In this document: piece by piece, positions 34,946-47,784 of the stretch
How positions within the stretch are numbered: the first letter of the stretch is position 1
How the letters are laid out: each line of letters opens with the position of its first letter
Assembly (NCBI GenBank): GCA_025999335.1
Contig: AP024681.1
Location: 615,610-679,609 of the forward strand
DNA from: Candidatus Parcubacteria bacterium
GTDB lineage: Bacteria; Patescibacteriota; Minisyncoccia; UBA6257; HR35
Reading direction: 5' to 3'
Length of the DNA: 64,000 nucleotides
Notes under the pieces: model-generated
The model's input: only the letters and a program-made list of their open reading frames with translations
The model's database searches: none
Told to the model about the DNA's origin: nothing
Position numbers and translations under genes: made by a program

Positions 34946-36037
34946 ATGGTTAAATTAATTCAAAAAGAAAATCAGAATTATTATGAATGCGAAGAATGTC
35001 ATTATGCTTATGGAACCGAAGAATTGGCACAAAAGTGTGAAAATTGGTGTAAAACAACTAGAAGTTGCAATCTTGAAATAATAAAATACGGCAAGAAATT
35101 TGAAATAGATCCAGAAACAGCTATTAAAAATGAAAAAACCATAGGATCAACCATCATTAGTGGTTTATTAGGAGTTTTTGTAGGTGGATTTTTGGTTTTT
35201 ATATTTTCGAAATTTAATTATATAAATGGTAACTTAATGGCGAATAAAGTTAATGTTGAAAACATAATCCAAGCAATCGTAGCTCAAGTTTTACCCAAAG
35301 AAGGTTTTCAAACAAGATTAGCTTTTGGTAATAGCGTACAAAAAATGATTGATTGTAAAGTGATTGACATAGAAAAACTTAAAAAGTTATACAATGGCAA
35401 CATTCCAGAATATATTCAAAAAGCAATTGATGGAAATAATGAGCCTATAGTTATCAATAACGAAACAGCTAATTATCTTTTAACTCTATTTTGGCCCTTA
35501 GGTCTTTCGAATAAAACCGAGTTTAACGAGAATATTCCCTTTAGTAAGAAAGATTTACCTTATTTAGCGTCTACAGGTGGTTGGTGGTTAGGAGAAAAGA
35601 ATAACGGAGTAGAATATTTTAATAAATGTGAAATTATAAAATTAACTCCTGAACAAGAATCTATTGTTTATGAAGTAGCTCAAAATACTTATAGACCTTG
35701 TTGTAATAATTCAACTTTTGCGCAGGATTGTAATCATGGTTCAGCTTTACTTGGTGCTTTAGAATTGGCTGCTTCTCAAGGTTATTCCAAAGATGAACTT
35801 TATAAATTAGCTTTGCAACTTAATTCTTTTTGGTTTCCTGATAATTATGTCAAGATTGCTTTGTATAAAAAATTAGTTGAAAATCAAGACTGGCAAAATA
35901 TTAATCCTAAAGAAATAATGTCAATAAAATATTCATCAATTTCTGGTTATTTACAAAATGTCGAAAAAAAATTAGCTCAACTTAACCTGCCTGGCATTCA
36001 AACTCAAGGCGCAGGTTGTGGTTTGCAAAATGAATAA
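34946..36037 (+). CDS. Hypothetical protein with an N-terminal Cys4 zinc ribbon and one TM
   Basis: 'YECEECHYAY...CENWC'; TM at about 70-90; Cys-containing periplasmic domain. Confidence 0.35.
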   Translation: MVKLIQKENQNYYECEECHYAYGTEELAQKCENWCKTTRSCNLEIIKYGKKFEIDPETAIKNEKTIGSTIISGLLGVFVGGFLVFIFSKFNYINGNLMANKVNVENIIQAIVAQVLPKEGFQTRLAFGNSVQKMIDCKVIDIEKLKKLYNGNIPEYIQKAIDGNNEPIVINNETANYLLTLFWPLGLSNKTEFNENIPFSKKDLPYLASTGGWWLGEKNNGVEYFNKCEIIKLTPEQESIVYEVAQNTYRPCCNNSTFAQDCNHGSALLGALELAASQGYSKDELYKLALQLNSFWFPDNYVKIALYKKLVENQDWQNINPKEIMSIKYSSISGYLQNVEKKLAQLNLPGIQTQGAGCGLQNE

Positions 36038-36509
36038 AAGTTTAATTTTGGGAATAGTTATTGGAGTGATTTTTTTTAGCGCAATTTATTTTTTTAATAA
36101 ACAACCGTTGACTCAAAAAAATCCTTTGTTTTCCGAGCTTCAAGCAGTTGTTTACAAAACTCCAACTTGTGGATGTTGCAAGGAATATATTAACTATTTA
36201 AAAGCTAATGGCTTTTCGGTTGAGGTGAGAGAGGTTAGCGATGAAGAATTAGAAAATGTCAAAAAACAAAATCAAATTCCAGCAGATTTATGGTCCTGCC
36301 ACACTGTTTTTCTCAATAATTATTTCGTTGAAGGACATATGCCAGTTGAAGCAATTAGCAAACTTTTAACTGAAAAACCAAATATTAACGGAATTGCTTT
36401 ACCGAAAATGCCTTCTGGTTCTCCAGGAATGCCCGGCATTAAACTCTATCCATTTAAAATTTATTCAGTAAAAGACGGTAAAGATTTGGGATTATTTATG
36501 GAGATATAA
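36018..36509 (+). CDS. DUF411 (CopG-like) metal-binding protein
   Basis: 'TPTCGCCKEY' CxCC motif and 'WSCHTVF', 'GHMP' are typical of DUF411 proteins found in copper-resistance operons. Confidence 0.6.
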   Translation: MVCKMNKSLILGIVIGVIFFSAIYFFNKQPLTQKNPLFSELQAVVYKTPTCGCCKEYINYLKANGFSVEVREVSDEELENVKKQNQIPADLWSCHTVFLNNYFVEGHMPVEAISKLLTEKPNINGIALPKMPSGSPGMPGIKLYPFKIYSVKDGKDLGLFMEI

Positions 36510-36524
36510 ATTTAAAATTTTCTA

Positions 36525-38132
36525 ATGATTAAGAAATATTTGCTTATTATTTTTATTATAGTTTTATTATTTTTTGTTAGTTATTTTATTTTTGTAAATA
36601 AAAATTTTGTAAATCAATATATTGAAAATAGTAATAATAACAACATTAAAAATCAAATTCAAACTATTTCAAATATTAATCATCCAAAGATTGTTGAATT
36701 ACAAAATGGAGACTCTTATGATTTAAATATTGATTTTGTAAATCATAATATAAATGGAAAAACTTATCGTATGTTAGCTTATAATGGCAGCATACCTGGG
36801 CCTATCATAAAAGTAAAACAGGGAAGTGAAATCACATTAAAAGTGAAAAACAATACTAATTTTTCTACTCTTTTGCATTCTCATGGTGTTAGATTAGAAA
36901 ACCAATTTGACGGAACACATCTTGTCCAAAAAGAAATTAATCCCGGAGAAACTTTTGCTTATAAAATTAAATTTCCCGATTTTGGTTTTTATTGGTATCA
37001 TCCTCATTTAAGAGAAGATTTGCAACAAGAATTAGGTCTTTATGGAGGTTTTTTGGTTATTCCTTCTAATAATGATTATTGGTTAAAAATAAATAAAGAA
37101 GAGTTTTTATTTTTAGATGATATTTTAATTGAAAATAACAATCTTGTTTTGAATTATGAAAACGCTGATCATACTTTAATGGGAAAATTTGGCAATATTA
37201 TGCTTACTAATGGACAAACATATTATTCTTTAAAAGTTAACAAAGGTGAAGTTATAAGATTTTATATTGTTAACACAGCCAATGTTCGTCCTTTTAATTT
37301 TTCTATTGAAAATACGAAATTAAAATTAATTGGTTCAGATAATGGTTTATACGAGAAGGCACGTTGGGTAGATTCGGTTTTAATTGCGCCTTCAGAAAGA
37401 TATATTGTTGAAGCACTATTTGACAAAGAAGGTAAATTTAAGATTCAAAATAAAACCCCAAATAAGAGTTATGATTTAGGCGAAATTATAGTAGAATCAA
37501 GTTTTACAGATATCTCTTATGCTAATTTTTTTAATAAATTTACGGATTATGAAAAAACAACCAAAGATATAGTGAATTTAAAACAATATTTAGCAAAAAA
37601 ACCTGACAAAGAAATATGGCTTGCAATGAATATGGGTATGATGATGAACAACGAATCTATGGGTATGATGATGACTATGATGAATAATAATATGAACCAT
37701 AATAATCATAATAATAGTATGATGCAAGCAGCAGACAATATAGAATGGGAAGACAGAAATCCATCAATGAATAAAATATCAAATATAAAGAATATTCAAT
37801 GGAAAATTATTGATAAAGAAAATGGTTTAGAAAATATGGATATTCAATGGAAATTTAAAAAAGGTGATTTAGTGAAAATTAGAATTTTTAATGACCCAAA
37901 TTCTATGCATTCAATGCAACACCCTATTCATATTCATGGACAAAGATTTTTAGTTTTAGCTCGTAATGGCGTACAAGAGAATAATTTTGCTTGGAAAGAT
38001 ACGGTTTTAGTGAAAACAGGAGAAACAGTTGATATTTTAGTTGACTTTTCTAATCAAGGTAAGTGGTTAATACATTGTCATATTCCAGAACATATGGAAG
38101 CAGGAATGATGATGCAATTTGAAGTAGAATAA
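36525..38132 (+). CDS. Multicopper oxidase (CueO/CopA-like) with a Met-rich insert
   Basis: Copper-ligand motifs 'HSHGVRL', 'WYHPHLRED', 'HPIHIHGQRF', 'HCHIPEHMEAGMM'; Met-rich 'MNMGMMMNNESMGMMMTMM'. Confidence 0.85.
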   Translation: MIKKYLLIIFIIVLLFFVSYFIFVNKNFVNQYIENSNNNNIKNQIQTISNINHPKIVELQNGDSYDLNIDFVNHNINGKTYRMLAYNGSIPGPIIKVKQGSEITLKVKNNTNFSTLLHSHGVRLENQFDGTHLVQKEINPGETFAYKIKFPDFGFYWYHPHLREDLQQELGLYGGFLVIPSNNDYWLKINKEEFLFLDDILIENNNLVLNYENADHTLMGKFGNIMLTNGQTYYSLKVNKGEVIRFYIVNTANVRPFNFSIENTKLKLIGSDNGLYEKARWVDSVLIAPSERYIVEALFDKEGKFKIQNKTPNKSYDLGEIIVESSFTDISYANFFNKFTDYEKTTKDIVNLKQYLAKKPDKEIWLAMNMGMMMNNESMGMMMTMMNNNMNHNNHNNSMMQAADNIEWEDRNPSMNKISNIKNIQWKIIDKENGLENMDIQWKFKKGDLVKIRIFNDPNSMHSMQHPIHIHGQRFLVLARNGVQENNFAWKDTVLVKTGETVDILVDFSNQGKWLIHCHIPEHMEAGMMMQFEVE

Positions 38133-38199
38133 AATTAAAATTTTATTAGTTTTGTTTAAGGAATAATTTATTAATATTAAATTGTAAAATAATATTTAA

Positions 38200-38829
38200 A
38201 TGATCGGATATAAACTGCTAAAGTTATTCAGCATTGTTTTTGTTTTAGTGCCTATTGTTATTATTTTTGCTCATTGTCCGTTGTGTACTGCTGGAGCTGG
38301 AATAGGCGCTTTAATTGCTAAAGAATTAGGAATGAAATCTTCGGCGATTGGGGTTTGGATGGGCGCTTTTAGTGTGGCTTTGGGATGGTGGTTGGGAAAT
38401 GTGGTTATGAAGCGTGCCGCGCGTTTCATCCCCAGAAGCCACCCGTCTGCTGAACAGGCAGGCATAGCCCTCGGCTCGGCATTCGCCGATCGTCTCCGCC
38501 GGAATGAACCGCGTTGGCACGCTTTTCTATTAGTTTCATTAATATTACTATCTTTTCTATCGATTATCTTGCCTCTAAAGCTTTATTTTTATGAAATTGG
38601 ATCTTTTTCAATTTTTTGGTTTGGAGATTATGGAAGTTTGTTTAATCGTACTTATGTTTATGATCAATTTTTACTGGGTTCAATTATTGGAGGATTGATG
38701 ATTATAATTTCAACTTTTATTAGCAAAAAAATCATTCAATTACGTCAAAATAAAATTTTTCCTTATCAAGGTCTTATAATTACTTTTATTTTATTGATAA
38801 TTATTACTATTTTCTTTCAATTTAAATAA
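38200..38829 (+). CDS. Hypothetical membrane protein containing a GC-rich in-frame insertion
   Basis: TM helices; 'HCPLCTAGAG' near the N-terminus. Confidence 0.4.
   Translation: MIGYKLLKLFSIVFVLVPIVIIFAHCPLCTAGAGIGALIAKELGMKSSAIGVWMGAFSVALGWWLGNVVMKRAARFIPRSHPSAEQAGIALGSAFADRLRRNEPRWHAFLLVSLILLSFLSIILPLKLYFYEIGSFSIFWFGDYGSLFNRTYVYDQFLLGSIIGGLMIIISTFISKKIIQLRQNKIFPYQGLIITFILLIIITIFFQFK
38409..38524. repeat. About 115-nt GC-rich (roughly 60% GC) segment with imperfect terminal inverted repeats, inserted in-frame
   Basis: gaaGCGTGCCGCGCG...CGCGTTGGCACGC termini; GC content roughly double the surroundings; encodes KRAARFIPRSHPSAEQAGIALGSAFADRLRRNEPRWHA. Confidence 0.4.
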
Positions 38830-39362
38830 TGGATGAATTAAATAAAAATATTAACGAACAACAAATAGGTAAACATGAAAGCTATGCGCTTAAAAAACAA
38901 CGCAAAGAGGAAGAACGAAGAAAACGACAGCGCAAAAAAATTATAAAAAAAATAATAAATGTTGCATTGATTGTTATTATTATTAGTGCTGGAATTTTTG
39001 GTTTAATTTGGCTTAAATTGAACAGTCCTAATTTACCTCCAACCTCATTAGAAGGTCATATTGAGGAATCTCCGCCGGGGCATATTTTATCTGAGCCAAT
39101 GCCCGAAGTTATTCAAAAACATATGCTTGAACATGCCGATGGCAAGGGCAAGCCAGGTGTTATTATTCAATATAATTGTCAAAAATATGTTTGCGAACCA
39201 GATTTAATACAAAAACTAACTGAGTTAGTAAAACAATATCCAGAAAATGTTTATCTTGCTCCAAATAATTACGATGGAAAAATAATTTTAACTAAACTTG
39301 GCAAAATTCAGATTTTAGATGTCTTTGATGAACAAAAAATTAGAAAATTCATTGAGGAATGA
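38829..39362 (+). CDS. Hypothetical membrane-anchored protein (Lys/Arg-rich N-terminus, one TM)
   Basis: ORF; start overlaps the upstream stop (ATGA). Confidence 0.35.
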   Translation: MDELNKNINEQQIGKHESYALKKQRKEEERRKRQRKKIIKKIINVALIVIIISAGIFGLIWLKLNSPNLPPTSLEGHIEESPPGHILSEPMPEVIQKHMLEHADGKGKPGVIIQYNCQKYVCEPDLIQKLTELVKQYPENVYLAPNNYDGKIILTKLGKIQILDVFDEQKIRKFIEE

Positions 39363-39484
39363 TTAAATATCTAAATACATCAACTTAATAAAACAAGTAA
39401 TAAAAAATAATTTTTAAATAATATACTCAGAAAAATATTATAATTTATATAGAAATGGATGAGAATTATTTACCTTAAAACCCA

Positions 39485-39922
39485 ATGGTCCCAATTGAAT
39501 ATGAAACTTTAATAGTTTTTCTTTCAACATCTATAATTTTTATTTTTGTTCTAATTTTTAATGCAATTTTTAAAAAGAAAATTTGCGCCGTTTGTGCATC
39601 AGTATTTTTAACCTGGTTAATATTTTTGGTTCTTTATTATTTTGGTTATTTTCAAAACTTATTGGTTTTAGCTCTTTTAATAGGATCGAGCGCAAGCGGA
39701 ATTTTTAATCTTTTAAAAGAAAAGTTAAATATTTTTAAACTGCCATTTATTCTAACTCTTTTAACAATTGCTTATTTTCTTTTATTAAAACAAATTGATA
39801 TCGCTCTTTTGATTTTTAACTTAATTTTATGGCTATTGTTTGCTTTAATATTTTTATTTTCAAAGAACCAAAACCTAAAATCAATCTTTCAAAAATTAAT
39901 TGAATGTTGTAAAGATTGGTGA
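39485..39922 (+). CDS. Hypothetical multi-pass membrane protein
   Basis: ORF; four hydrophobic helices. Confidence 0.3.
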   Translation: MVPIEYETLIVFLSTSIIFIFVLIFNAIFKKKICAVCASVFLTWLIFLVLYYFGYFQNLLVLALLIGSSASGIFNLLKEKLNIFKLPFILTLLTIAYFLLLKQIDIALLIFNLILWLLFALIFLFSKNQNLKSIFQKLIECCKDW

Positions 39923-40073
39923 AATTAATTATTTTAGTCTTTTAATTTTATAAATTTTCTTTAACAAATAAACTATTCCAAATATATTAAAAACCAATCC
40001 TAACCAAAATAATTTTATTTGGTACTGACTAATTAAGTTGATAATACCAATGGCTCCAAGAATAGGCAGTATA

Positions 40074-40373
40074 TTAACAAAATAATGAGCGCAACAGGAT
40101 ATCATAGCTACAGTGGAGGTTGTTCCAGATACAGCCAGAACACCGCTGGATGTTTTTTTTTTGATTAATAATAGTTTTTAAATAAACATAAAGCCCAACT
40201 TGAATTCCAAATCCTATTGTTAAACCAATAAAAAAATACCAGAACTGCAAAAACTGACTTAAGGCAAAAGACCAACCAGATATTAAACTAACCATAGAAA
40301 AATAAATAGCCAATAATAAAATTGTTCCAGAAAAACCATATATTACAGATTTTAATAAGATTCTTTTATCCAT
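40074..40373 (-). CDS. Hypothetical small membrane protein
   Basis: ORF; TM helices; C-terminal 'CSGC'. Confidence 0.25.
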   Translation of the reverse strand: MDKRILLKSVIYGFSGTILLLAIYFSMVSLISGWSFALSQFLQFWYFFIGLTIGFGIQVGLYVYLKTIINQKKNIQRCSGCIWNNLHCSYDILLRSLFC

Positions 40374-40417
40374 ATTTTGTTTTAAATAATTTCTAATTTT
40401 CTATAGAAATATAGAAA

Positions 40418-41044
40418 TTAAATTTTTTGTTCTTCATTAATTTTTCTAATTTCTTGAAGAAGAAAGTCATTACGGATGCCCATATCAGGATCATCTAAAA
40501 TATAACGAACTATCCCTTCTTTATCAATGATAACATAACTGTGACCCGGATATAAGCCAGGATGCATTGAAGAAGGTATATTTAACATACCAAAATTTTT
40601 AGAAGCTGATTTATTAACATCAAATAAAACAATAGCTTGCTTAAGTTCCGGCATCTTTTGAATAGCTTGCTTCCATTCTTCAGGCGAATCAACAATAATG
40701 GAAAGAACAATTGTTTTTTCTGTTTCAAATCTTTTATCTTTAGTTAAAGCAACCATTTGTTGCCAGCAAGATGGATAGCACATTACACCTTCATTAAAAA
40801 ATAGCAATACATTTTTACCTCGAAAGTTTTTTAAAGAATAAACCTCGCTATCAATGCCTAAAAGTTCAAAATCTGGCGCTGGTTTGTTGATTATTTCTTT
40901 GTTGATCAAAAGAAGATTGTGATGTTTAAAATGTTCTTTTTGAGAAATCTCTTGTTTTGATGGTTCTTTCGATGCTGGCAGTAATAATAGAAAAATGATA
41001 ATTACTGCTAAAACGATTGGCAAAATAATTACTAGGTTTTTCAT
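40418..41044 (-). CDS. Thioredoxin-fold redoxin-family protein (TlpA/peroxiredoxin-like), membrane-anchored
   Basis: N-terminal TM; 'PAPDFELLGIDSEVYSLKNFRGKNVLLFFNEGVMCYPSCWQQ'. Confidence 0.55.
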   Translation of the reverse strand: MKNLVIILPIVLAVIIIFLLLLPASKEPSKQEISQKEHFKHHNLLLINKEIINKPAPDFELLGIDSEVYSLKNFRGKNVLLFFNEGVMCYPSCWQQMVALTKDKRFETEKTIVLSIIVDSPEEWKQAIQKMPELKQAIVLFDVNKSASKNFGMLNIPSSMHPGLYPGHSYVIIDKEGIVRYILDDPDMGIRNDFLLQEIRKINEEQKI

Positions 41045-41143
41045 CGTGTTTTAAATTTTAAATACCCCGACTGGGTATATTATATCACAATTTTGATTTA
41101 TTTGACAAATATGTTATAATTGAAATAAAAGTATTAATAATTT

Positions 41144-41250
41144 GTCGCGAACTAATACAAACTGTACGCGAACCACTGCGAACTATATCAGTATTGTGGT
41201 ATCAAAAAGTTCGCAACAGTTCGCGAGAAGGTTCGCAAGGGTTCGCGATT
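41144..41250. repeat. GTTCGCR repeat element (promoter-proximal copy)
   Basis: tcGCGAACtaatacaaactgtacGCGAACcactGCGAACtatat...aaaaaGTTCGCAacaGTTCGCGagaagGTTCGCAaggGTTCGCGat: GCGAAC units followed by GTTCGC units, forming a large imperfect inverted repeat; 35 nt are near-identical to 42596-42631. Confidence 0.5.
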
Positions 41251-41263
41251 TGCAAATCCAAAA

Positions 41264-43474
41264 ATGAAAAAATATATTTGTCCAATGGGATGCCTTGAGC
41301 CTCAAGATCAGCCCGGAAATTGTCCTGTTTGTGGAATGAAGCTTGTTGAAGTTGAGGAAAAATATCACAAAAAACACAAAGAAAAACACGAAGAACATTT
41401 AGATAAACATCAAGGCCATCGAACTGAAGATTTTCTCAAAAAATTTTGGTTATCTTTGATTTTAACTATTCCGATAGTTCTTTATTCTGATATTTTTCAA
41501 AAAATTAGTAACATAAAATTACCTTCTTTTGAGGGAATTCAATATTTGCCTTTTGGGCAGACAGGTTTAATTATGCTTCTTGGTTCTATTGTCTTTTTTT
41601 ATGGTGGTTTTGTTTTTCTTGTTGGTGCTTATCGAGAAATAAAAGCAAAGAATCCGGGAATGATGACTTTGATTGCTTTAGCGGTAGTATCTGCTTATGT
41701 TTATAGTGTTTTTGCTGTTTTATTCAAAATTGGACATGAATTTTTCTGGGAATTAGCAACCTTAATTACGATTATGCTTTTGGGACATTATTTTGAAATG
41801 AAATCAGTTTCTTCAGCGCAACGAGCTTTACAGGAGATTGAAAAGTTATTGCCTGATATCGCGGAATTAGAAGACGGAAGAAAAGTGAAATTAGATGAAT
41901 TAAAGTTAAATGATATTGTAATTGTTCGGCCCGGAGGAAAGATTCCTGCTGATGGTATTGTTATTGAGGGAAAATCTGAAGTTAATGAAAGTATGATAAC
42001 TGGAGAAAGTAAACCGGTTTTAAAAGAAATTGGTTCAGAAGTCATTGCTGGAACAATTAATGGTGATGGAGTTTTAAAAGTCAAAGTAACAAAAATTGGC
42101 GAAGAGACATTTTTGGCAGGAATTAAAAGATTAATTAAAGAAGCGCAAGCATCAAAATCAAAACTTCAAGTTTTAGCTGATGTTTTTGCGAAATATTTGA
42201 CTTTTATTGCTATAGGTATAGGTTCTTTGAGTTTTATTATTTGGCTTTTGTTACAAAAAAATCTTGCTTTTGCCCTTGAAAGATTGGTAACAGTTTTGAT
42301 TGTTGCTTGTCCTCATGCTTTAGGTTTAGCAGTTCCCTTAGTTGTGGCAATTTCAACATCTTTAGCAATTCATAACGGCTTTTTAATTAGAAACAGATTA
42401 CAACTTGAGCTGGCAAGAAAAATAGATGTTGTTTTATTTGATAAAACTGGGACCTTAACTTCTGGAAGATTTAAGGTAAGAGAAATTATAACGCGAACCG
42501 ATGCGAACAACGATGACAACCGCGAACTTATGCGAACAGATAATGACAAAGTTCGCGAGAGTTCGCAAGAGTTTGCGTCTGAAAACAATGTTCGCAATAG
42601 TTCGCGAGAAGGTTCGCAAGAGTTTGCGATATTACAATTAGCAGCCTCCTTAAATCAATACTCCCAACATTTTATTGCTCAAGGGATTTTAGAAAAAGCA
42701 AAAGAGCAGGGAATTAAACTTTTAAAAGTTGAGGAATTTGAAAATCTAACTGGTAGAGGAGTTAAAGGAAAAATTAATGGAAAAACTTATTATCTTGGCG
42801 GTAATAATTTGTTAAAGGAACTGGGTTACCCGAATGAAAACCGAATAAATTACCCGAATGAAAATCAAATTGGAACAACGGTCTATCTTATTGATGAAAA
42901 TAAAAATCTTTTAGGAGCAATTGTGTTGGAAGATGAAATCCAGGAAGAATCTTTTGAAGCTGTTAAGAATTTACATCAAATGGGAATTAAAGTAGCAATG
43001 ATAACCGGTGATAAAAAAGAAGTTGCTGAAAAAGTTGCCAAGGAGTTAGGAATTGATGAGTATTTTGCTGAAGTTTTACCAGAAGATAAAGTTAATAAAG
43101 TTAAAGAACTTCAAAAAAGAAATTTAAAAGTAATGATGGTTGGCGATGGAATTAATGACGCTCCGGCATTGATGCAAGCTGATGTTGGTGTGGCAATTGG
43201 GGCAGGTACAAATGTGGCTATTGAATCAGCGGGAATAATTTTAGTCAGAAATGATCCAAGAGATATTGTTAAATTAATTGAGCTTTCAAGAAAAACTTAT
43301 CGCAAAATGATTGAAAACCTCTTTTGGGCAACTGGCTATAATATTGTTGCTTTACCACTCGCAGCTGGGATTTTAGCTTTTAAAGGAATCTTTCTTTCCC
43401 CAGCTTTAGCTGCAATCTTTATGTCTCTTTCAACAGTAATTGTTGCTGTTAATGCGTTGGGGTTGAGAGGTTGA
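41264..43474 (+). CDS. copB: Copper-translocating P1B-type ATPase (CPH motif, His-rich N-terminus; CopB-like)
   Basis: 'CPMGC...CPVCGM' N-terminal metal site; His-rich 'KYHKKHKEKHEEHLDKHQGH'; TM 'ACPHALGLA'; 'DKTGTLT', 'GDGINDAPAL', 'MITGD'. Confidence 0.9.
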   Translation: MKKYICPMGCLEPQDQPGNCPVCGMKLVEVEEKYHKKHKEKHEEHLDKHQGHRTEDFLKKFWLSLILTIPIVLYSDIFQKISNIKLPSFEGIQYLPFGQTGLIMLLGSIVFFYGGFVFLVGAYREIKAKNPGMMTLIALAVVSAYVYSVFAVLFKIGHEFFWELATLITIMLLGHYFEMKSVSSAQRALQEIEKLLPDIAELEDGRKVKLDELKLNDIVIVRPGGKIPADGIVIEGKSEVNESMITGESKPVLKEIGSEVIAGTINGDGVLKVKVTKIGEETFLAGIKRLIKEAQASKSKLQVLADVFAKYLTFIAIGIGSLSFIIWLLLQKNLAFALERLVTVLIVACPHALGLAVPLVVAISTSLAIHNGFLIRNRLQLELARKIDVVLFDKTGTLTSGRFKVREIITRTDANNDDNRELMRTDNDKVRESSQEFASENNVRNSSREGSQEFAILQLAASLNQYSQHFIAQGILEKAKEQGIKLLKVEEFENLTGRGVKGKINGKTYYLGGNNLLKELGYPNENRINYPNENQIGTTVYLIDENKNLLGAIVLEDEIQEESFEAVKNLHQMGIKVAMITGDKKEVAEKVAKELGIDEYFAEVLPEDKVNKVKELQKRNLKVMMVGDGINDAPALMQADVGVAIGAGTNVAIESAGIILVRNDPRDIVKLIELSRKTYRKMIENLFWATGYNIVALPLAAGILAFKGIFLSPALAAIFMSLSTVIVAVNALGLRG
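42491..42631. repeat. GTTCGCR repeat element inserted in-frame (about 47 codons) in the ATPase N-domain just after DKTGTLT
   Basis: acGCGAACcgatGCGAACaacgatgacaacCGCGAACttatGCGAACag...aaaGTTCGCGagaGTTCGCAagagtttgcg...atGTTCGCAataGTTCGCGagaagGTTCGCAagagtttgcgat; encodes RTDANNDDNRELMRTDNDKVRESSQEFASENNVRNSSREGSQEFA. Confidence 0.5.
43386..43468. repeat. Left direct repeat (attL-like): the in-gene 3' end of the ATPase
   Basis: 57/57 identity (43412-43468 vs 47615-47671) plus about 25 nt at roughly 80% identity upstream. Confidence 0.55.
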
Positions 43475-43484
43475 TTTAACAAAC

Positions 43485-43514
43485 TTGACAAGGTTTGTTT
43501 TTGTTGTGTATAAT
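43485..43514 (+). promoter_or_regulatory. Near-consensus sigma70-type promoter upstream of the precursor peptide gene
   Basis: TTGACA (43485-43490), 18-nt spacer, TATAAT (43509-43514); about 80 nt upstream of the precursor ATG. Confidence 0.45.
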
Positions 43515-43592
43515 GTATTACAGCTAAATTAGAAAGTTGTTTGAATTCTAAGTAAATTATATTAAAGGTCGCTATTAAATAAAATTAAATAA

Positions 43593-43772
43593 ATGAGGAA
43601 AATAATATTAAAAAATAATGATAAAAAAAGAATTGCTAGTATCTATTCGAGAGAACCAGAGTATACGCAAATAAGAAAGGTGAATTTGGTAGCTGGTCCA
43701 TGTGACAATTCTAGCAATGGATGTACAGGTAGTTGCAATCATTCATCGGGTGCCATTCAACAACTCAAATAA
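43593..43772 (+). CDS. TOMM/LAP-type RiPP precursor peptide (59 aa), not in the ORF track
   Basis: MRKIILKNNDKKRIASIYSREPEYTQIRKVNLVAGPCDNSSNGCTGSCNHSSGAIQQLK. Charged leader plus a Cys/Ser/Thr/Gly-rich C-terminal core (GPCDNSSNGCTGSCNHSSG), 53 nt upstream of the YcaO gene. Confidence 0.6.
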   Translation: MRKIILKNNDKKRIASIYSREPEYTQIRKVNLVAGPCDNSSNGCTGSCNHSSGAIQQLK

Positions 43773-43824
43773 CGAATATACAAGTTACTTGCAATTACTT
43801 TTTAAAATAATTATATTTGTATAA

Positions 43825-45096
43825 ATGTTAATTAAGGAAAGAAGGCTAGAGGGAATATCAAAAATTAAAATATATAAAAATACTAGATGGTATGATTTAC
43901 CATTCATATGGCAATATGCGGCTTTTTTTTCTAATTTTAAAAAAAACAATATCTTTGGAGTAGGATCTTCATTGATTTCTCGAAAAATAGCTATTACTCG
44001 AGCTTTTTATGAGTTGCTAGAAAGATTTTCGCTTAGCTACCCTTCTCTTAATAAATTTTTAAGGCTCAGTTTTTCTGAAATAGACGAAGATAGAACAATA
44101 CCGTACAATGTTTGGTTCAAGAAAAATGATGTTGAAAAAAACCAAAAAATAAATCCAAAATTAATTAAAAATATACCTTCTTTAGATGATAAATTATACT
44201 TTGCGTGGGGTTACAATTTAATTAATAGAGAAAAAGTTTTAATTCCTGCACAGTTAATCTATGTTCCTCCAAAAAGATTTATCGAAAAAATAATTCGTGA
44301 GTCAAATAGTACCGGGGCTGCTGCTGGTAAAAATTTAAAACAATGTTTGATTAAAGGTATTTTAGAAATTTTAGAAAGAGATGCGTTTATAAATTATTAT
44401 TTAAACGAATTTTTTGGTGAAAGGATAGATCTTAGCAGATTTAAAAATATTAAATGCTTTATTAATAAATTTAGAAAATACCATTTAGAAATATATTCTT
44501 TTTATCTACCTTCCGATATAGAAATTTTTAATGTGGTGACTTTCTTAATAGATAAATCAGGCATGAGTCCAATTATAAATTGTGGTTCTGCCTCAGGGTT
44601 TGAGATCGAAAATTGTATTTTAAAAAGCCTTGAAGAATCTCTTCAGGTTTTAATGTGGATAAGATTACTTTCTTTAACTAAAAGAATTAGTACTATAGAT
44701 CTTAACACTCTTGAGAACAGGGGATTTTTTTGGATGGATAATAAAAAATTGAAATTAATATATCAATGGGTAAATAAATCAAGAAAACCAAAACAACTTA
44801 ATTCTTTAATTAAAAAGCTTAAAAATAACAAAAATAACCGTTTAAATTATCTTATTGAGCAAATTAAAAATCATAATTATAATATATATTATTCTGAAAT
44901 TACTTCTGAAAAATTCAAAAAATTAAAAGTAAAAGTAATTAAAGTGATAATTCCTCAATTGCAATGGATATATTTAGGCGAAGATTTTAAATTTATTAAT
45001 TGGGAACGAATTAAAAAGATCAGAGAAATTAACAATCTTAAACCTTTTGATGTAGATGCTAACAAATTAAATAAAGTGCCACATTTTTTTTTATAA
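43825..45096 (+). CDS. YcaO-domain cyclodehydratase (TOMM 'D' protein)
   Basis: 'GVGSSLISRKIAITRAFYELLERFSL' and 'SNSTGAAAGKNLKQCLIKGILEILERDA' are YcaO ATP-binding signatures; C-terminal '...VPHFFL'. Confidence 0.8.
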   Translation: MLIKERRLEGISKIKIYKNTRWYDLPFIWQYAAFFSNFKKNNIFGVGSSLISRKIAITRAFYELLERFSLSYPSLNKFLRLSFSEIDEDRTIPYNVWFKKNDVEKNQKINPKLIKNIPSLDDKLYFAWGYNLINREKVLIPAQLIYVPPKRFIEKIIRESNSTGAAAGKNLKQCLIKGILEILERDAFINYYLNEFFGERIDLSRFKNIKCFINKFRKYHLEIYSFYLPSDIEIFNVVTFLIDKSGMSPIINCGSASGFEIENCILKSLEESLQVLMWIRLLSLTKRISTIDLNTLENRGFFWMDNKKLKLIYQWVNKSRKPKQLNSLIKKLKNNKNNRLNYLIEQIKNHNYNIYYSEITSEKFKKLKVKVIKVIIPQLQWIYLGEDFKFINWERIKKIREINNLKPFDVDANKLNKVPHFFL

Positions 45097-45113: not shown

Positions 45114-45893
45114 ATGAAAGAGAAATTAAGTTATGTAATATTAAAAAAATTAGCTTCAAATTATGAAAATGTCAACAATTTTGAATTTTTAAAATACTTT
45201 AAAAAATCCTCTATAGATAAATTCCATAAAACTATCAAAAATTATCCCGAAAGCTGGAAAAAAATTAATTTTAAAACATACGCAAGGTTCTCCAATGTTT
45301 TGCTTAATAAAAATTTTGGAAAGGATGAGCTTTTAAAAATTATTTTTAAAAGAAGAAGTGAGAGAAATTTTCAAAAATATCCTTTAAGTTTGAAAGAAAT
45401 TTCTTATTTTCTCCTAGGAGCAACAATTACCAAGGTTTTTGATAATAATTTCGATTATAACTCATTTAGAGCTTATCCTTCGGCTGGAGCCCGTTACTCT
45501 CTTGAGGTATATTTATTTTTATTATCATCAAAAGATCTAAAAAGGGGCTTGTATCATTATAATGTAAGATTTCATTGTTTAGAGTATATGTGGGATTTTA
45601 AGAAAAAAGATTTAATAAAAATTTTTAATCAAAAATTTATTCTAAATAGTAGTTTAATAATTTTTATTACTTGTGTTATTAAAAGAATTTATCCTAAATA
45701 TGGTGAAAGAAGCTTGAGATTGGCTCTATTAGAGGCAGGACATTTAGCTCAAAATTTTTTACTGTTAGCTACAAAATTAGGGCTGAAATCTTGTCCAGTG
45801 GGTGGTTTTAAAGAACAAAAAATTTTAGAAATTTTAGATATATCTCAGGAAGAACAAGAATTGCCCCTTTATTGTATAATAATAGGAAAATGA
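45114..45893 (+). CDS. SagB-type (McbC-like) FMN-dependent dehydrogenase (TOMM 'B' protein)
   Basis: 'FKRRSERNF', 'YPSAGARYSLEVYLF', 'LLEAGHLAQNF', 'CPVGGF'. Confidence 0.8.
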   Translation: MKEKLSYVILKKLASNYENVNNFEFLKYFKKSSIDKFHKTIKNYPESWKKINFKTYARFSNVLLNKNFGKDELLKIIFKRRSERNFQKYPLSLKEISYFLLGATITKVFDNNFDYNSFRAYPSAGARYSLEVYLFLLSSKDLKRGLYHYNVRFHCLEYMWDFKKKDLIKIFNQKFILNSSLIIFITCVIKRIYPKYGERSLRLALLEAGHLAQNFLLLATKLGLKSCPVGGFKEQKILEILDISQEEQELPLYCIIIGK

Positions 45894-47539
45894 CATTAGA
45901 AATGATTTTATCTAAAGAAAAAGGACCGTTGAGAGAACATATTTTTTGTGATATTAAGTTTTTGAGAATCGGCACTAAAGAACTAATTACAGAGAGCAAA
46001 CTTATTGTTCGTTCAAATGAAAAGGTAGCTTTAATTGGAAGAAATGGAAGTGGGAAATCAACTTTAATTAGATTGATAATTAGTTTTTATGAAAAAAGAG
46101 ATGTTTCCGAAGATTTAGAATTTTCTGGTAAGATTTTTATTTCCCCTGAAATTAAGATAGCTTATCTACCTCAAGAAATTAAACTACAATTTTCTGGTAC
46201 TGTTGAAGAATATTTAGAATGGAGAGGTGGTGAATTTGTAAAACTAGTTAAAAGATATAAAGAGTTTTCCGAAAAAGGAGAATTTTCTTTAGAAGAAGCA
46301 GAAGAATATTCACGAATAATTGAAAGAATGACTCAATTTAATTTATGGGATTATGAAGGAAAAAGAGATAGAATTTTAAAAAAATTAAATATTAGATCAG
46401 AAATTCTAAATAGAGATGTCCAGGAGATATCTGGTGGTGAAGCTACAAAAATAACTTTAGCTGGAATTCTACTTTCTGATGCTAATTTCTGGATTCTTGA
46501 TGAGCCAACTAACAATTTAGATAAGGATTCTATAGATATCCTTTTTGAAGAAATGAGAAGGTTTAGGGGAGGAATTTTATGTATTACTCACGATAGAAGA
46601 CTTTTAAATATTTCTTCAAGAATTTTTGAGATAGATGAAGAAACTAAAACTTTAAAAGTTTGGGGAGGTAATTATGAATTTTATAAAAAAGAAAAGGAAA
46701 AAGAATTTTTGGGGAGGATGAAAAAATTTGAGGAACAAGAAAGAAAAAGGAAAAAATTAGAAAAAGCTATTGAGGAGTTAAAGAAAAAATCTCAAGAATT
46801 TGAAAAAATTGGCCGTGATGCTTTTTACAGAGCAAAAGGATCTAAAATAGCTAAACAAGCTAAGGTTCAAGAAGAGAGAATTTTAAGAGAACTTTCTCAG
46901 CTTACCGAACCTCAGCCTCCAGAAAGGCCAGAGTTTCCTAAGTCACAACCAGAAGTTTTAAAAGGAAATGTGCTTTCAATTAAAGGCTTATCTTATTCTT
47001 TTAATGATAAGATTTCAATTAATATTCCTTATTTAATTCTAGAAGCCGGGGAAAGGCTTTTAATAGAAGGACCAAACGGTTCTGGTAAAACAACTTTGAT
47101 TAGACTCATTCTTGGTGAAATAAAACCATCAGAAGGAAAAGTAACTCTTAAAGAAAGTATTATAATTGGATATTTACCTCAATCACCTAAAATCGAAAAT
47201 ATCAGCCAAAAAGTTTATCAATTTCTAAAAACTGAACATAATATTAATGAAGGGGAGACTAAAGCTATTCTTAATAGAATGAAAATACCACATGTTTTCA
47301 ATTTGACTTTAAAAGATCTAAGCATTGGCGAAATAAGAAGATTACAACTTGCTGCTATTTTATTTAAAAATCCAGACCTTTTAATTTTGGATGAGCCAAC
47401 TAATCATCTTGATATTTATACCATTGAAGAACTTGAAGTGGCGTTGAAAGATTATAAGGGAACAATAATTTTTGTTTCTCATGATAAATATTTTATAAAC
47501 ACTTTAAAACCAACCCAAAAAATAGTTTTAAAAAGATAA
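45872..47539 (+). CDS. ABC-F family ATPase (two ABC domains, no TM, charged interdomain linker); candidate self-immunity/ribosome-protection protein
   Basis: Walker A 'GRNGSGKST' and 'GPNGSGKTT'; signature 'SGGE'/'SIGE'; 'ILDEPTNNLD'/'ILDEPTNHLD'; KE-rich linker at about 270-320; 22-nt overlap with the SagB-like gene. Confidence 0.7.
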   Translation: MYNNRKMTLEMILSKEKGPLREHIFCDIKFLRIGTKELITESKLIVRSNEKVALIGRNGSGKSTLIRLIISFYEKRDVSEDLEFSGKIFISPEIKIAYLPQEIKLQFSGTVEEYLEWRGGEFVKLVKRYKEFSEKGEFSLEEAEEYSRIIERMTQFNLWDYEGKRDRILKKLNIRSEILNRDVQEISGGEATKITLAGILLSDANFWILDEPTNNLDKDSIDILFEEMRRFRGGILCITHDRRLLNISSRIFEIDEETKTLKVWGGNYEFYKKEKEKEFLGRMKKFEEQERKRKKLEKAIEELKKKSQEFEKIGRDAFYRAKGSKIAKQAKVQEERILRELSQLTEPQPPERPEFPKSQPEVLKGNVLSIKGLSYSFNDKISINIPYLILEAGERLLIEGPNGSGKTTLIRLILGEIKPSEGKVTLKESIIIGYLPQSPKIENISQKVYQFLKTEHNINEGETKAILNRMKIPHVFNLTLKDLSIGEIRRLQLAAILFKNPDLLILDEPTNHLDIYTIEELEVALKDYKGTIIFVSHDKYFINTLKPTQKIVLKR

Positions 47540-47588: not shown

Positions 47589-47671
47589 CATCTTTTTTCT
47601 CCCCAACTTCAGCAGCAATCTTTATGTCTCTTTCAACAGTAATTGTTGCTGTTAATGCGTTGGGGTTGAGA
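47589..47671. repeat. Right direct repeat (attR-like): duplicated ATPase 3' end with its own stop codon
   Basis: Identical 57-mer; ends '...GLR-stop' and is followed directly by a hairpin terminator. Confidence 0.55.
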
Positions 47672-47675
47672 TAAA

Positions 47676-47700
47676 AACCGCAAGTTTGCGGGGATTTTAT
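47676..47700 (+). terminator. Rho-independent terminator
   Basis: CCGCAA-gt-TTGCGG followed by GGATTTTATTTATATTTTT. Confidence 0.5.
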
Positions 47701-47784
47701 TTATATTTTTAATCTTTAAAATACTATTCATGATTTTATTAATTTTCTTGAGATTATTTTATAATAAATAAAAAGTAAAATAAT

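What the first reader, a model, noticed from the sequence alone, without database searches (positions are those of the whole stretch)
43593..43772. Missed small gene: 59-aa TOMM precursor peptide
The ORF falls below the 60-aa cut-off of the supplied ORF track. Translation: MRKIILKNNDKKRIASIYSREPEYTQIRKVNLVAGPCDNSSNGCTGSCNHSSGAIQQLK. The C-terminal 20 residues contain 4 Cys, 6 Ser, 1 Thr and 4 Gly, which is a heterocyclisable core. The preceding 'VAG-P' could be a leader-cleavage region. The only near-consensus sigma70 promoter I could find in the window (TTGACA-18-TATAAT, 43485-43514) lies immediately upstream, which is consistent with high expression of a precursor.
Basis: seen in the sequence. 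Interest (0 to 1): 0.8.

Follow-up and report, generated by a model that had tools for sequence, protein, structure and literature searches.

The report
Azole-peptide precursor gene in repeat-flanked cassette
The 59-codon ORF is a real, conserved gene for the precursor of a thiazole/oxazole-modified peptide; it heads a compact four-gene cassette (precursor, YcaO, dehydrogenase, ribosome-protection-type ABC-F) inserted at the end of a copper-pump gene in a Parcubacteria genome, which suggests, but does not prove, a new ribosome-targeting peptide antibiotic.

Summary
The ORF (43593-43772, +) is exactly as described. It is a real gene. Ten distinct orthologous small ORFs sit directly upstream of homologous YcaO genes. 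They share a core C-x-N-S-x-N-G-C-T-G-S-C-N-H-S-S that stays almost unchanged while YcaO identity falls to 33-35%. Most codon changes in the core are synonymous, including AGY/TCN serine switches.

Nine of ten loci have a sigma70-like promoter matching at least 11/12 positions just upstream. Downstream lie a single-domain YcaO with no E1/ThiF/RRE partner, a SagB dehydrogenase with the catalytic Lys-Tyr, and an ABC-F that best matches NCBI's ribosomal-protection-like model.

New here: the promoter plus four genes form a 4.1-kb unit bracketed by a 78-nt direct repeat of the CopA 3' end. In related genomes the same unit is bracketed by perfect 51-nt repeats of the RtcB 3' end. The ABC-F therefore belongs to the cassette.

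A second perfect promoter exists at 16176. GenBank already lists the peptide as a hypothetical protein (BCX15750.1). YcaO+nitroreductase clusters in CPR bacteria were reported bioinformatically in 2020. The ABC-F link, the conserved core family and the repeat-bounded cassette appear unreported. A ribosome target is inferred, not shown.

The parts
43391..43468 (+). Left direct repeat (DR-L), the last 78 nt of the CopA ORF before its present final codons GGT TGA
   Evidence: the repeat finder: 78 nt, 94% identical to 47594-47671, with the last 56 nt identical.
43485..43514 (+). Sigma70-type promoter TTGACA-18-TATAAT, 17 nt inside the cassette's left edge. The -10 ends 78 nt before the ATG.
   Evidence: A promoter at the equivalent position matches >=11/12 in 9 of 10 orthologous loci, five of them 12/12.
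43564..43571 (+). 5'-UTR motif AAAGGTCG, function unknown
   Evidence: Found 9-35 nt upstream of the precursor ATG (27-35 nt in four loci, 9 nt in L088) in the window, L003, L005, L168 and L088. No Rfam match. No stable fold.
43593..43700 (+). Precursor gene, leader part (residues 1-36). It has a basic N-terminus, the motif R-I-A-S-I-Y (equivalent to K-D-A-V-I-F in orthologues), and ends ...NLVAGP.
   Evidence: Alignment of 8 orthologues. Further members.
43701..43748 (+). Precursor gene, conserved core CDNSSNGCTGSCNHSS (residues 37-52) with 3 Cys, 5 Ser and 1 Thr as candidate heterocyclisation sites
   Evidence: The core is near-invariant in the window, L005, L168, L088, L089, L171 and L009. 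Synonymous changes outnumber non-synonymous ones in the comparisons among these near-invariant cores (e.g. window vs L171, 8 vs 1), and Ser codons switch between AGY and TCN.
43749..43772 (+). Window-specific C-terminal tail GAIQQLK plus the stop codon. Most orthologues end ...NHSSK.
43825..45096 (+). YcaO cyclodehydratase (423 aa, single domain)
   Evidence: PF02624 at 132 bits. TIGR03604 at 159 bits, below its cutoff of 219. Family-invariant acidic and Ser/Gly residues (E63, E66, S162, G164, E181, E184, R185) that I take, from memory, to be the ATP/Mg2+ motifs. AF2 model pLDDT 87; best PDB match is the LynD YcaO domain, with no E1/RRE domain.
45114..45893 (+). SagB/McbC-type FMN dehydrogenase (259 aa)
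   Evidence: TIGR03605 at 129.5 bits, above its cutoff of 78.4. K195-Y196 is 98% conserved in 88 homologues and aligns to the KY of CyaGox. McbC is also hit.
45890..47539 (+). ABC-F ATPase (549 aa) of the ribosomal-protection-like type. Its ATG overlaps the SagB stop codon (ATGA).
   Evidence: NF000355 at 389.8 bits, above its cutoff of 380. EttA and Uup models score far below their cutoffs. Best PDB hit is VmlR/ExpZ. The start matches BCX15753.1.
47594..47671 (+). Right direct repeat (DR-R), a relic of the original CopA 3' end, followed in frame by TAA
47678..47701 (+). Intrinsic terminator hairpin CCGCAAGTTTGCGG plus a T-run. It was probably the original CopA terminator and now ends the cassette operon.
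   Evidence: The fold of 47600-47710 gives -34.2 kcal/mol, z = -4.2.

Best explanation
The ORF is the A gene (precursor peptide) of a minimal linear azol(in)e-peptide (LAP/TOMM) operon in a Candidatus Parcubacteria genome.

Shown:
- It is a conserved, selected coding gene.
- It lies behind a conserved strong promoter.
- It is co-oriented with, and immediately upstream of, a YcaO, a SagB-type dehydrogenase and an ABC-F.
- The promoter plus these four genes form a 4.1-kb unit bracketed by direct repeats of the 3' end of the gene it is inserted into.

Inferred mechanism:
1. The leader (residues 1 to about 36, motif RIASIY) is recognised directly by the partner-less YcaO or by the YcaO-SagB pair.
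2. YcaO uses ATP to cyclodehydrate Cys and Ser/Thr in the core CDNSSNGCTGSCNHSS to azolines.
3. SagB (FMN, Lys-Tyr) oxidises them to thiazoles and (methyl)oxazoles. The adjacent C44-T45 and S47-C48 pairs could form bis-heterocycles.
4. An enzyme encoded outside the cassette removes the leader.
5. More speculative: the product blocks the bacterial ribosome, and the co-transcribed ARE-like ABC-F protects the producer's ribosomes.
6. More speculative: the cassette spreads as a unit by recombination at its flanking repeats.

My confidence by step: precursor gene 0.95, azole formation 0.75, ribosome target with ABC-F immunity 0.45, mobile cassette 0.5. The overall figure given refers to 'genuine LAP precursor modified by the adjacent YcaO/SagB'.
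For: Gene reality:
- Exact ORF.
- Ten distinct orthologues upstream of YcaO homologues of 33-58% identity.
- Only this frame is open in all loci.
- Mostly synonymous change in the core, with Ser AGY/TCN switches.
- Strong Shine-Dalgarno sites before orthologues in L089, L171 and L009.
- Promoter matching >=11/12 in 9 of 10 loci.

Enzymes:
- YcaO fold, invariant candidate ATP/Mg2+ residues, nearest structure LynD.
- SagB above the NCBIfam cutoff, with a conserved KY.
- YcaO-SagB adjacency in 87 of 97 distinct loci.

ABC-F link:
- Immediately after SagB in all 8 loci that have this core type and enough sequence, and also in L170.
- ATGA overlap with the SagB stop in 3 loci.
- Best NCBIfam model is ribosomal-protection-like NF000355 for every member tested. 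This includes an independent case in a Saccharibacteria LAP locus, L033.
- The interdomain linker is about 19 aa longer than Uup's and about 7 shorter than VmlR's.
- The ABC-F lies inside the repeat-bounded cassette at two different chromosomal sites.

Background: LAP clusters (YcaO + nitroreductase) were reported in CPR genomes (PMC7298704). LAPs that plug the ribosome exit tunnel are known (PMC7136475).
Against: - There are no expression, mass-spectrometry or activity data. Everything comes from metagenome assemblies.
- No E1-like/ThiF-like/RRE partner is present, although nearly all characterised azole-forming YcaOs need one.
- The YcaO scores below the TIGR03604 trusted cutoff.
- A standalone YcaO plus a flavin dehydrogenase can give an amidine rather than azoles, as in streptamidine (PMC8442711).
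- The cassette encodes no protease and no exporter.
- ABC-F homologues of 43-85% identity also occur without any YcaO/SagB nearby (L166, L167, L169, L172, L173).
- The ABC-F keeps an NBD1 'arm' like the housekeeping Uup and EttA, and PDB scores separate the ARE and housekeeping types only modestly (206 vs 180 bits).
- Core similarity to klebsazolicin is not above compositional chance.
Confidence: 0.8

Rival explanations
1. It is a genuine azole-peptide precursor, but the product's target is not the ribosome (for example DNA gyrase as for microcin B17, or a membrane or signalling role). On this view the ABC-F is a translation factor or regulator that merely travels in the operon.
For: Orphan ABC-F homologues occur without the cluster. 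The ABC-F has a Uup/EttA-like arm. The order of G-S-C / G-C motifs resembles microcin B17 slightly more than shuffled controls do (fraction of shuffles >= observed 0.0015-0.036). Other subclades of the same YcaO family carry quite different third genes.
Against: There is no McbG-type pentapeptide-repeat gene and no exporter. The ABC-F lies inside the repeat-bounded cassette at two sites. It accompanies this core type in 8 of 8 loci. It is independently linked to another LAP locus, L033. Every member is best matched by the ribosomal-protection-like model and falls far below the EttA and Uup cutoffs.
Confidence: 0.3
2. YcaO performs different chemistry on this peptide (backbone thioamidation or amidine formation). 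SagB has a structural or cryptic role, so the product is not an azole peptide.
For: The best sequence hit in the PDB is the thioamide-forming M. jannaschii YcaO. There is no RRE partner. In streptamidine a standalone YcaO plus a dehydrogenase gives an amidine (PMC8442711). TIGR03604 scores below its cutoff.
Against: No TfuA is present. The TOMM SagD model scores 159 bits against 68 for the McrA-thioamidation model. The best structural match is the heterocyclase LynD. The SagB Lys-Tyr catalytic motif is 98% conserved. Nine of the 16 core residues are Cys/Ser/Thr.
Confidence: 0.12
3. The cassette is an intracellular toxin/antidote (addiction or growth-control) module. The modified peptide acts on the producer's own ribosomes and the ABC-F is the antidote. 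That would stabilise a selfish mobile cassette rather than make a secreted antibiotic.
For: No exporter, no leader protease and no signal for secretion lie inside the repeat-bounded unit. The cassette has an insertion signature at two sites. Its own strong promoter drives both the peptide and the ABC-F.
Against: Known LAPs such as microcin B17 and klebsazolicin rely on housekeeping proteases, so the missing genes could lie elsewhere in the genome. Orphan ABC-Fs look more like immunity kept against neighbours' toxin. There is no precedent.
Confidence: 0.1
4. The peptide is a Cys-rich metal-binding peptide (copper chaperone, metallothionein or chalkophore) belonging to the surrounding copper-homeostasis genes.
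For: In the window it lies between CopA and other copper genes (multicopper oxidase 36525-38132, cupredoxin-like 31581-32405).
Against: The same cassette sits after RtcB, after an MFS/Mur-ligase pair, and next to lasso-peptide genes in other genomes. The direct repeats show that it was inserted into CopA's 3' end. There are only 3 Cys. The constant partners are YcaO/SagB/ABC-F, not metal genes.
Confidence: 0.03
5. The ORF is a chance open frame in AT-rich intergenic DNA.
For: It has no Shine-Dalgarno site in the window and no Pfam or NCBIfam hit. An exhaustive phmmer search finds no significant true relative.
Against: The ORF is conserved in 10 loci with synonymous-dominated change. None of the 11 start sites inspected in the window has a Shine-Dalgarno site, whereas orthologues in other genomes do.
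Confidence: 0.01

Closest known systems
LAP (YcaO + nitroreductase) clusters of CPR bacteria, Sharrar et al. 2020 (PMC7298704)
   Same: Same phylogenetic setting and the same YcaO-nitroreductase pair with an upstream Cys/Ser-rich small ORF. That paper counted 110 clusters in 93 CPR genomes, 51 of them Parcubacteria.
   Different: Their example carries a peptidase as third gene. Here that corresponds to a different subclade, with an M16-type peptidase in 18 loci. The paper's passages on CPR LAP clusters, as retrieved, do not mention an ABC-F, the conserved CxNSxNGCTGSCNHSS core family, the lack of a partner protein or flanking repeats. None of these clusters has been characterised experimentally.
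Klebsazolicin and phazolicin, ribosome exit-tunnel LAPs (PMC7136475, PMC6783444)
   Same: They are linear azole peptides made by a YcaO plus an FMN dehydrogenase from a small precursor. They target translation, which is what the ABC-F suggests here.
   Different: They need an E1-like C protein and use an exporter (KlpE/PhzE) for immunity. Here there is no C protein, no exporter, and an ABC-F instead. The similarity of the core to the KLB core SQSPGNCASCSNSASANCTGGLG is not above chance. The S/T-P amidine motif is absent.
Microcin B17 (McbABCDEFG)
   Same: Its precursor has G-S-C / G-C-S sites that become bis-heterocycles. The McbC dehydrogenase is a detectable homologue. McbD is a structural match. 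The leader is removed by a housekeeping protease (my own knowledge).
   Different: Its target is gyrase, with McbG and McbEF immunity and an McbB scaffold, all of which are absent here. Its core is Gly-rich and much longer.
Standalone YcaOs of bottromycin and streptamidine pathways (PMC7136475, PMC8442711)
   Same: These YcaOs act without an E1/ThiF partner. Streptamidine also pairs a YcaO with a flavin dehydrogenase.
   Different: They make one thiazoline and/or amidine rings. The streptamidine dehydrogenase is very unlike McbC, whereas the enzyme here is a clear SagB-family member with the KY motif. Those pathways have many more genes.
ARE-type ABC-F ribosome-protection proteins (VmlR, Vga, Msr, Lsa; producer-encoded OleB/CarA/TlrC)
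   Same: The best NCBIfam model is NF000355. The best PDB hit is VmlR. The interdomain linker is extended. The gene is co-located with antibiotic biosynthesis genes, as in macrolide producers (my own knowledge).
   Different: No full-text hit links an ABC-F to a RiPP or YcaO cluster. This protein keeps an NBD1 arm. It does not reach the cutoff of any specific ARE subfamily.
Integrated elements that duplicate the 3' end of their target gene (integrase-dependent islands; integrase-less CIME-type relics); from my own knowledge
   Same: The insert sits exactly at a gene's 3' end, flanked by direct repeats of that end, and the target ORF is kept intact.
   Different: No integrase is encoded in the cassette or within about 14 kb. 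The unit is only 4.1 kb. Mobility itself was not shown.

Membership tests
LAP/TOMM precursor peptide (RiPP A gene) | Small ORF adjacent to, and co-oriented with, a YcaO cyclodehydratase gene | tested here: met
   It lies 52 nt upstream of the YcaO on the same strand. The same arrangement holds in 10 orthologous loci.
LAP/TOMM precursor peptide (RiPP A gene) | C-terminal core enriched in Cys/Ser/Thr, N-terminal leader | tested here: met
   Nine of the 16 core residues are C/S/T. The leader motif (D/E/I)-A-(V/S/F)-x-hydrophobic is shared with orthologues.
LAP/TOMM precursor peptide (RiPP A gene) | Match to a curated precursor family model | tested here: not met
   No Pfam or NCBIfam hit at E<=0.01. 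The exhaustive phmmer search finds only the peptide itself.
LAP/TOMM precursor peptide (RiPP A gene) | Azol(in)e rings in the mature product | not testable with these tools
   This needs mass spectrometry or NMR of the product.
Canonical azole synthetase (C/D or F/D plus B proteins) | YcaO (D) with ATP/Mg2+ binding residues | tested here: met
   PF02624. The invariant residues E63, E66, S162, G164, E181, E184 and R185, which I take from memory to be the ATP/Mg2+ motifs. LynD-like fold.
Canonical azole synthetase (C/D or F/D plus B proteins) | Score above the TIGR03604 (SagD-type) trusted cutoff | tested here: not met
   159.3 bits against a cutoff of 219.25.
Canonical azole synthetase (C/D or F/D plus B proteins) | E1-like (C) or Ocin-ThiF-like (F) partner with an RRE, separate or fused | tested here: not met
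   No such family is conserved within +/-5 kb in 97 loci. The YcaO is a single domain of 423 aa. The window holds no second YcaO, SagB or ABC-F copy. ThiF/E1-type partners were not searched for window-wide.
Canonical azole synthetase (C/D or F/D plus B proteins) | FMN dehydrogenase (B) with the catalytic Lys-Tyr | tested here: met
   TIGR03605 at 129.5 bits, above 78.4. K195-Y196 is 98% conserved and aligns to the KY of CyaGox.
ARE (antibiotic-resistance) ABC-F | Two ABC domains joined by a linker, no transmembrane domain, passing an ABC-F ribosomal-protection model | tested here: met
   NF000355 at 389.8 bits, above 380. Relatives score 374-413 bits.
ARE (antibiotic-resistance) ABC-F | Extended interdomain linker (ARD) relative to housekeeping ABC-Fs | tested here: inconclusive
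   The linker is about 19 aa longer than Uup's and about 7 aa shorter than VmlR's, judged from pairwise alignments. An NBD1 arm is present, unlike VmlR.
ARE (antibiotic-resistance) ABC-F | Confers resistance to a ribosome-binding drug | not testable with these tools
   This needs expression in a sensitive host plus the purified peptide.
Klebsazolicin/phazolicin family | Homologous core or leader, E1-like C protein, dedicated exporter | tested here: not met
   Core similarity gives p = 0.05-0.44 against shuffles. There is no C protein and no exporter.
CPR LAP clusters (Sharrar 2020) | YcaO adjacent to a nitroreductase-family gene, with a Cys/Ser-rich small ORF, in a CPR genome | tested here: met
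Integrative / cis-mobilisable element | Direct repeats at both ends that duplicate the target sequence | tested here: met
   78-nt repeat at CopA in the window. Perfect 51-nt repeats at RtcB in L005, L006 and L168.
Integrative / cis-mobilisable element | Element-encoded integrase or recombinase | tested here: not met
   The four cassette genes are all accounted for. None was found among the 19 neighbouring ORFs scanned.
Integrative / cis-mobilisable element | Empty target sites or excised circles in related genomes | not tested
No empty CopA or RtcB site is among the loci held.

The most novel reading that the evidence does not exclude
A self-contained, integrase-less 4.1-kb 'antibiotic plus immunity' cassette circulates among CPR bacteria by recombination at duplicated 3' ends of host genes. 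Its partner-independent YcaO and SagB convert an ultra-conserved 16-residue core into an azole peptide that blocks the ribosome. A dedicated ARE-type ABC-F provides self-protection. This would be the first RiPP cluster with ABC-F immunity and a minimal two-enzyme azole synthetase.
Probability: 0.3. Interest if true: 0.8.

Novelty: new variant of a known kind. Interest (0 to 1): 0.6.

Why it matters
CPR/Patescibacteria are ultra-small, mostly uncultured episymbionts with very few known natural products. How they compete or control their hosts is an open question.

This locus offers a directly testable, synthesisable system: about 2.3 kb for the precursor plus two enzymes. If it works it would show three things. 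Azole installation can proceed without the E1/RRE partner thought to be near-universal. A RiPP pathway can use an ABC-F as its resistance gene, which would both predict a ribosomal target and provide a resistance-guided mining handle. And such clusters can move as tiny repeat-bounded cassettes.

The extreme conservation of the 16-residue core across enzymes that are only 33-58% identical points to a conserved macromolecular target, and so to a potentially useful antibiotic scaffold. If the ribosome inference fails, the finding remains an ordinary new member of the already reported CPR LAP clusters.

Tried and rejected
- **Klebsazolicin homology.** I recalled the KLB core from memory, confirmed it in PMC10125368 and tested it. 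Local alignment scores do not exceed shuffles (p 0.05-0.44), so I rejected it.
- **Microcin B17 similarity.** It is only marginal (p 0.0015-0.036) and driven by G-S-C/G-C spacing. I did not treat it as homology.
- **Direct sequence searches with the peptide.** The word-indexed search found only the peptide itself. The exhaustive phmmer search found the peptide itself plus unrelated Cys-rich repeat proteins. The family is recoverable only through genomic context.
- **A conserved third biosynthetic protein (C/E1/ThiF/RRE, protease, exporter).** Clustering all neighbours of 97 loci found none for this subclade.
- **'ABC-F is exclusive to the cluster'.** Rejected, because five orphan homologues were found with no YcaO/SagB relics nearby.
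- **RNA elements.** There is no Rfam hit at 43300-44000. There is no significant structure in the 5' UTR or in the precursor-YcaO spacer, so there is no evidence for an attenuator.
- **The antisense 44-aa ORF (43608-43742).** It is not conserved.
- **Flanking repeats at the other loci.** L086/L003 (same CopA site), L171, L009 and L088 show none. In L170 the 'repeat' is a second precursor gene with its own promoter.
- **Literature.** No full-text hit links YcaO or RiPPs to ABC-F other than incidental co-mentions. The klebsazolicin primary paper was not held.
Full report
**1. The observation.**
Window 43593-43772 (+) is an ATG-to-TAA ORF. TTGACA-18-TATAAT lies at 43485-43514.

Three details are wrong or incomplete:
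- The last 20 residues contain 2 Cys, 5 Ser, 1 Thr and 3 Gly. The whole peptide has 3 Cys, not 4.
- A second perfect -35/-10 pair exists at 16176-16203.
- The peptide is not absent from public annotation. It is GenBank BCX15750.1, 'hypothetical protein KatS3mg097_642', from a Candidatus Parcubacteria MAG on a 680-kb contig. The next three genes are BCX15751-15753.

The window is about 26% G+C.

**2. The neighbourhood.**
- Upstream is a CopA-type Cu-ATPase (41264-43474).
- Downstream on the same strand come three genes:
  - a YcaO (43825-45096, 423 aa; PF02624; TIGR03604 at 159 bits, below its cutoff of 219)
  - a SagB-family dehydrogenase (45114-45893; TIGR03605 at 129.5 bits, above its cutoff)
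  - an ABC-F (NF000355 'ribosomal protection-like' at 389.8 bits against a cutoff of 380; the EttA and Uup models score about 250 bits, far below theirs)
- The ABC-F most likely starts at ATG 45890. Its ATGA overlaps the SagB stop codon, and this start matches the GenBank protein.
- A terminator hairpin follows at 47678-47691.

**3. Is the small ORF a gene?**
YcaO homologues were collected. Their loci were fetched from genomes and metagenomes.

Ten distinct small ORFs lie immediately upstream of YcaOs that are 33-58% identical to the window's. They end in a shared core:

| Locus | Core region |
|---|---|
| window | GPCDNSSNGCTGSCNHSS... |
| L005 | GPCGNSGNGCTGSCNHSSK |
| L168 | CCQNSGNSCTGSCNHSSK |
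| L088 | SCSNSGDGCNGSCNHSSK |
| L089 | SCSNSGNGCTGSCNHSSK |
| L171 | SCDNSANGCTGSCNHSSK |
| L009 | ACTNSGNGCTGSCNRCSG |
| L087, L006, L003 | looser variants |

Further evidence that the ORF is a gene:
- At the codon level most differences are synonymous. Window vs L171 shows 8 synonymous and 1 non-synonymous change in 16 codons. Conserved serines alternate between AGY and TCN codons.
- Only this frame is open in all loci. The 44-aa antisense ORF is not conserved.
- The window gene lacks a Shine-Dalgarno site, but so do all 11 start sites inspected in the window. Orthologues in L089, L171 and L009 have strong GGAGG-type sites at the right spacing.
- A sigma70-like promoter with at least 11 of 12 consensus positions sits just upstream in 9 of 10 loci, and five are perfect.

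**4. The enzymes.**
- *YcaO.* Residues I take, from memory, to be the ATP/Mg2+ motifs are invariant in the family (E63, E66, S162, G164, E181, E184, R185), as is the C-terminal P-H-x-F-L. An AlphaFold model (pLDDT 87, pTM 0.91) is one YcaO domain. Its best PDB match is the YcaO half of the cyanobactin heterocyclase LynD, followed by MusD, the M. jannaschii YcaO, TruD and McbD. LynD's E1-like/RRE half has no counterpart.
- *SagB.* K195-Y196 is conserved in 98% of 88 homologues and aligns with the KY of the thiazoline oxidase CyaGox. McbC is also detected. From my own knowledge this is the catalytic Lys-Tyr of azoline dehydrogenases.
- *Neighbours.* Clustering every ORF within +/-5 kb of 97 distinct YcaO loci gives YcaO in 97 and SagB in 87. 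The third gene differs by subclade: M16 peptidase (18 loci), a PRTase/beta-propeller protein (12), histidine phosphatase plus a kinase-like protein (11 and 10), or ABC-F (11). No E1-like, ThiF-like or RRE protein is conserved.

This is therefore a two-enzyme, partner-less azole synthetase candidate.

**5. The ABC-F.**

*For a functional link:*
- The ABC-F directly follows SagB in all eight loci with this core type that extend far enough, and in L170, which has a different core and two precursor genes. The junction is an ATGA overlap in three loci and a close start in the others, from a 22-nt overlap to a 71-nt gap.
- A truncated ABC-F of the same type sits next to a different LAP precursor and YcaO in a Saccharibacteria MAG, L033.
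- All members tested are best matched by NF000355 at 374-413 bits.
- The top PDB hit is VmlR/ExpZ.
- The interdomain linker is about 19 residues longer than Uup's and about 7 shorter than VmlR's.

*Against exclusivity:*
- Homologues of 85%, 63%, 50%, 44% and 43% identity occur with no YcaO/SagB nearby and no relics of them.
- The 85% homologue appears split by a frameshift.
- The protein keeps an NBD1 arm like Uup and EttA.

**6. The cassette.**
Folding the region after the ABC-F revealed a copy of the CopA 3' end.
- A 78-nt direct repeat brackets the promoter and the four genes: 43391-43468 and 47594-47671, 94% identical, with the last 56 nt identical.
- The right copy continues in frame into TAA and the terminator. 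It is evidently the original CopA end (...NALGLR*). The present CopA ends ...NALGLRG* and runs into cassette DNA.
- In L005, L006 and L168 the same unit lies after an intein-containing RtcB gene. There it is bracketed by perfect 51-nt repeats of the RtcB 3' end including its stop codon, with spacings of 4089, 4125 and 4074 nt.
- Those three genomes differ by 8-15% in the flanks and in the cassette interior. Yet each keeps its two repeat copies identical, and L168's copies share the same two variants. That suggests homogenisation or repeated recombination.
- L086/L003 share the CopA site but have lost, or never had, the right repeat.
- No integrase is encoded in the cassette or among 19 neighbouring ORFs.

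What is shown is an insertion signature at two independent sites that encloses the ABC-F. What is inferred is that the unit is, or was, mobile.

**7. Mechanism proposed.**
1. Transcription starts at the cassette's own promoter.
2. The precursor is translated.
3. The YcaO or the YcaO-SagB pair recognises the leader.
4. ATP-dependent cyclodehydration and FMN-dependent oxidation convert Cys and Ser/Thr in CDNSSNGCTGSCNHSS to azoles.
5. A non-cassette protease removes the leader.
6. The product inhibits ribosomes, and the ABC-F protects the producer.

Steps 1-2 rest on conservation. Steps 3-4 rest on enzyme family features. Steps 5-6 are inference. The rivals are a non-ribosomal target, other YcaO chemistry, an intracellular toxin/antidote module, a metal-binding peptide and a chance ORF. 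They are weighed in the rival list.

**8. Comparison with what is known.**
- Sharrar et al. 2020 reported that LAP clusters (YcaO, usually with a nitroreductase, in one example with a peptidase) are widespread in CPR genomes and speculated about ribosome targeting by analogy with phazolicin (PMC7298704). The general kind is therefore known, though uncharacterised.
- Travin et al. 2020 excluded standalone-YcaO clusters from their mining for translation-targeting LAPs (PMC7136475).
- Klebsazolicin and phazolicin use an E1-like partner and exporter-based immunity.
- The apparent resemblance of the core to the klebsazolicin core (sequence from PMC10125368) is not significant.
- Streptamidine shows that a standalone YcaO plus a dehydrogenase need not yield azoles (PMC8442711).
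- Full-text searches found no report of an ABC-F in a YcaO or RiPP cluster.

**9. Verdict.**
As a precursor it is a new member of a known kind. The system around it is a new variant: a partner-less YcaO/SagB pair, a highly conserved core, an ARE-like ABC-F, and a repeat-bounded 4.1-kb cassette at two insertion sites. Chemistry, target and mobility remain to be demonstrated.

Noticed in passing
window 41142-41249 and 42491-42630: A palindromic repeat built from CGCGAAC / GTTCGCG heptamer arrays occurs once in the AhpC-CopA intergenic region. It occurs again in frame inside the CopA ORF, where it encodes a low-complexity insert (...TRTDANNDDNRELMRTDNDKVRESSQEFASENNVRNSSREGSQEFA...). A similar TCGCGAACTTATGCGAAC motif lies upstream of the precursor in L170. 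L001's CopA has a different insert at the same place. It is reminiscent of Rickettsia palindromic elements that insert into coding genes.
   Followed up: partly
window 16176-16203: A second perfect TTGACA-16-TATAAT promoter-like site. I did not examine what it drives.
   Followed up: no
L005 1-4732, L006 1760-4681, L168 1-2617: The gene the cassette is inserted behind in these genomes is an RtcB RNA ligase carrying one or two inteins (Intein_splicing, Hint and LAGLIDADG hits; 973 to over 1670 aa).
   Followed up: no
L171 925-2646: A lasso-peptide-like gene set (56-aa ORF, PqqD-like RRE, Asn-synthase-like cyclase) lies directly upstream of the YcaO/SagB/ABC-F cassette. That makes two RiPP systems side by side in one CPR contig.
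   Followed up: no
L169 9121-11524 (minus strand): An orphan ABC-F (50% identical) in another Parcubacteria MAG lies 2.6 kb from a ThiF-family gene, a nitroreductase-like gene and a 505-aa ORF. This may be a different azole or ThiF-dependent RiPP cluster.
   Followed up: no
L170 4009-4164 and 8041-8217: This cassette has two paralogous precursor genes, each with its own promoter-like region. One lies before the YcaO and one after the ABC-F. Their cores differ from the NGCTGSCN type (...CQPPTPPCGPCKKCSPH and ...CGNPPACSTDCKNCNDPGCKRCQH).
   Followed up: partly
L166 4826-6446: The closest ABC-F homologue (85% identity) is split into 72-aa and 481-aa pieces, by a frameshift or an assembly error. 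It has no YcaO/SagB nearby, so it may be a decaying orphan immunity gene.
   Followed up: partly
window 43564-43571; L003, L005, L168, L088 upstream regions: A conserved AAAGGTCG-like motif lies in the 5' UTR, 27-35 nt before the precursor ATG in four loci and 9 nt before the annotated ATG in L088. It is too far upstream to act as a normal Shine-Dalgarno site in most loci. Its function is unknown.
   Followed up: partly
loci L007-L165 (CPR YcaO-SagB clade): Other subclades pair the same YcaO-SagB core with different third genes: M16 peptidase, PRTase fused to a PQQ-like beta-propeller, or histidine phosphatase plus a kinase-like protein. Their Cys-rich precursors are very different but share a D-A-K/Q-E/P-F leader motif. 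This points to a large, unexplored RiPP radiation in Patescibacteria.
   Followed up: partly
window 31581-43474: The cassette is inserted at the edge of a copper-homeostasis gene group: a cupredoxin-like protein, a multicopper oxidase at 36525-38132, an AhpC/redoxin, and CopA with an HMBD domain.
   Followed up: no
L173 4734-8176: Another orphan ABC-F (43% identity) is flanked by a 38-aa ORF upstream and a radical-SAM enzyme downstream. This may be a different peptide-modification locus linked to the same ABC-F family.
   Followed up: no
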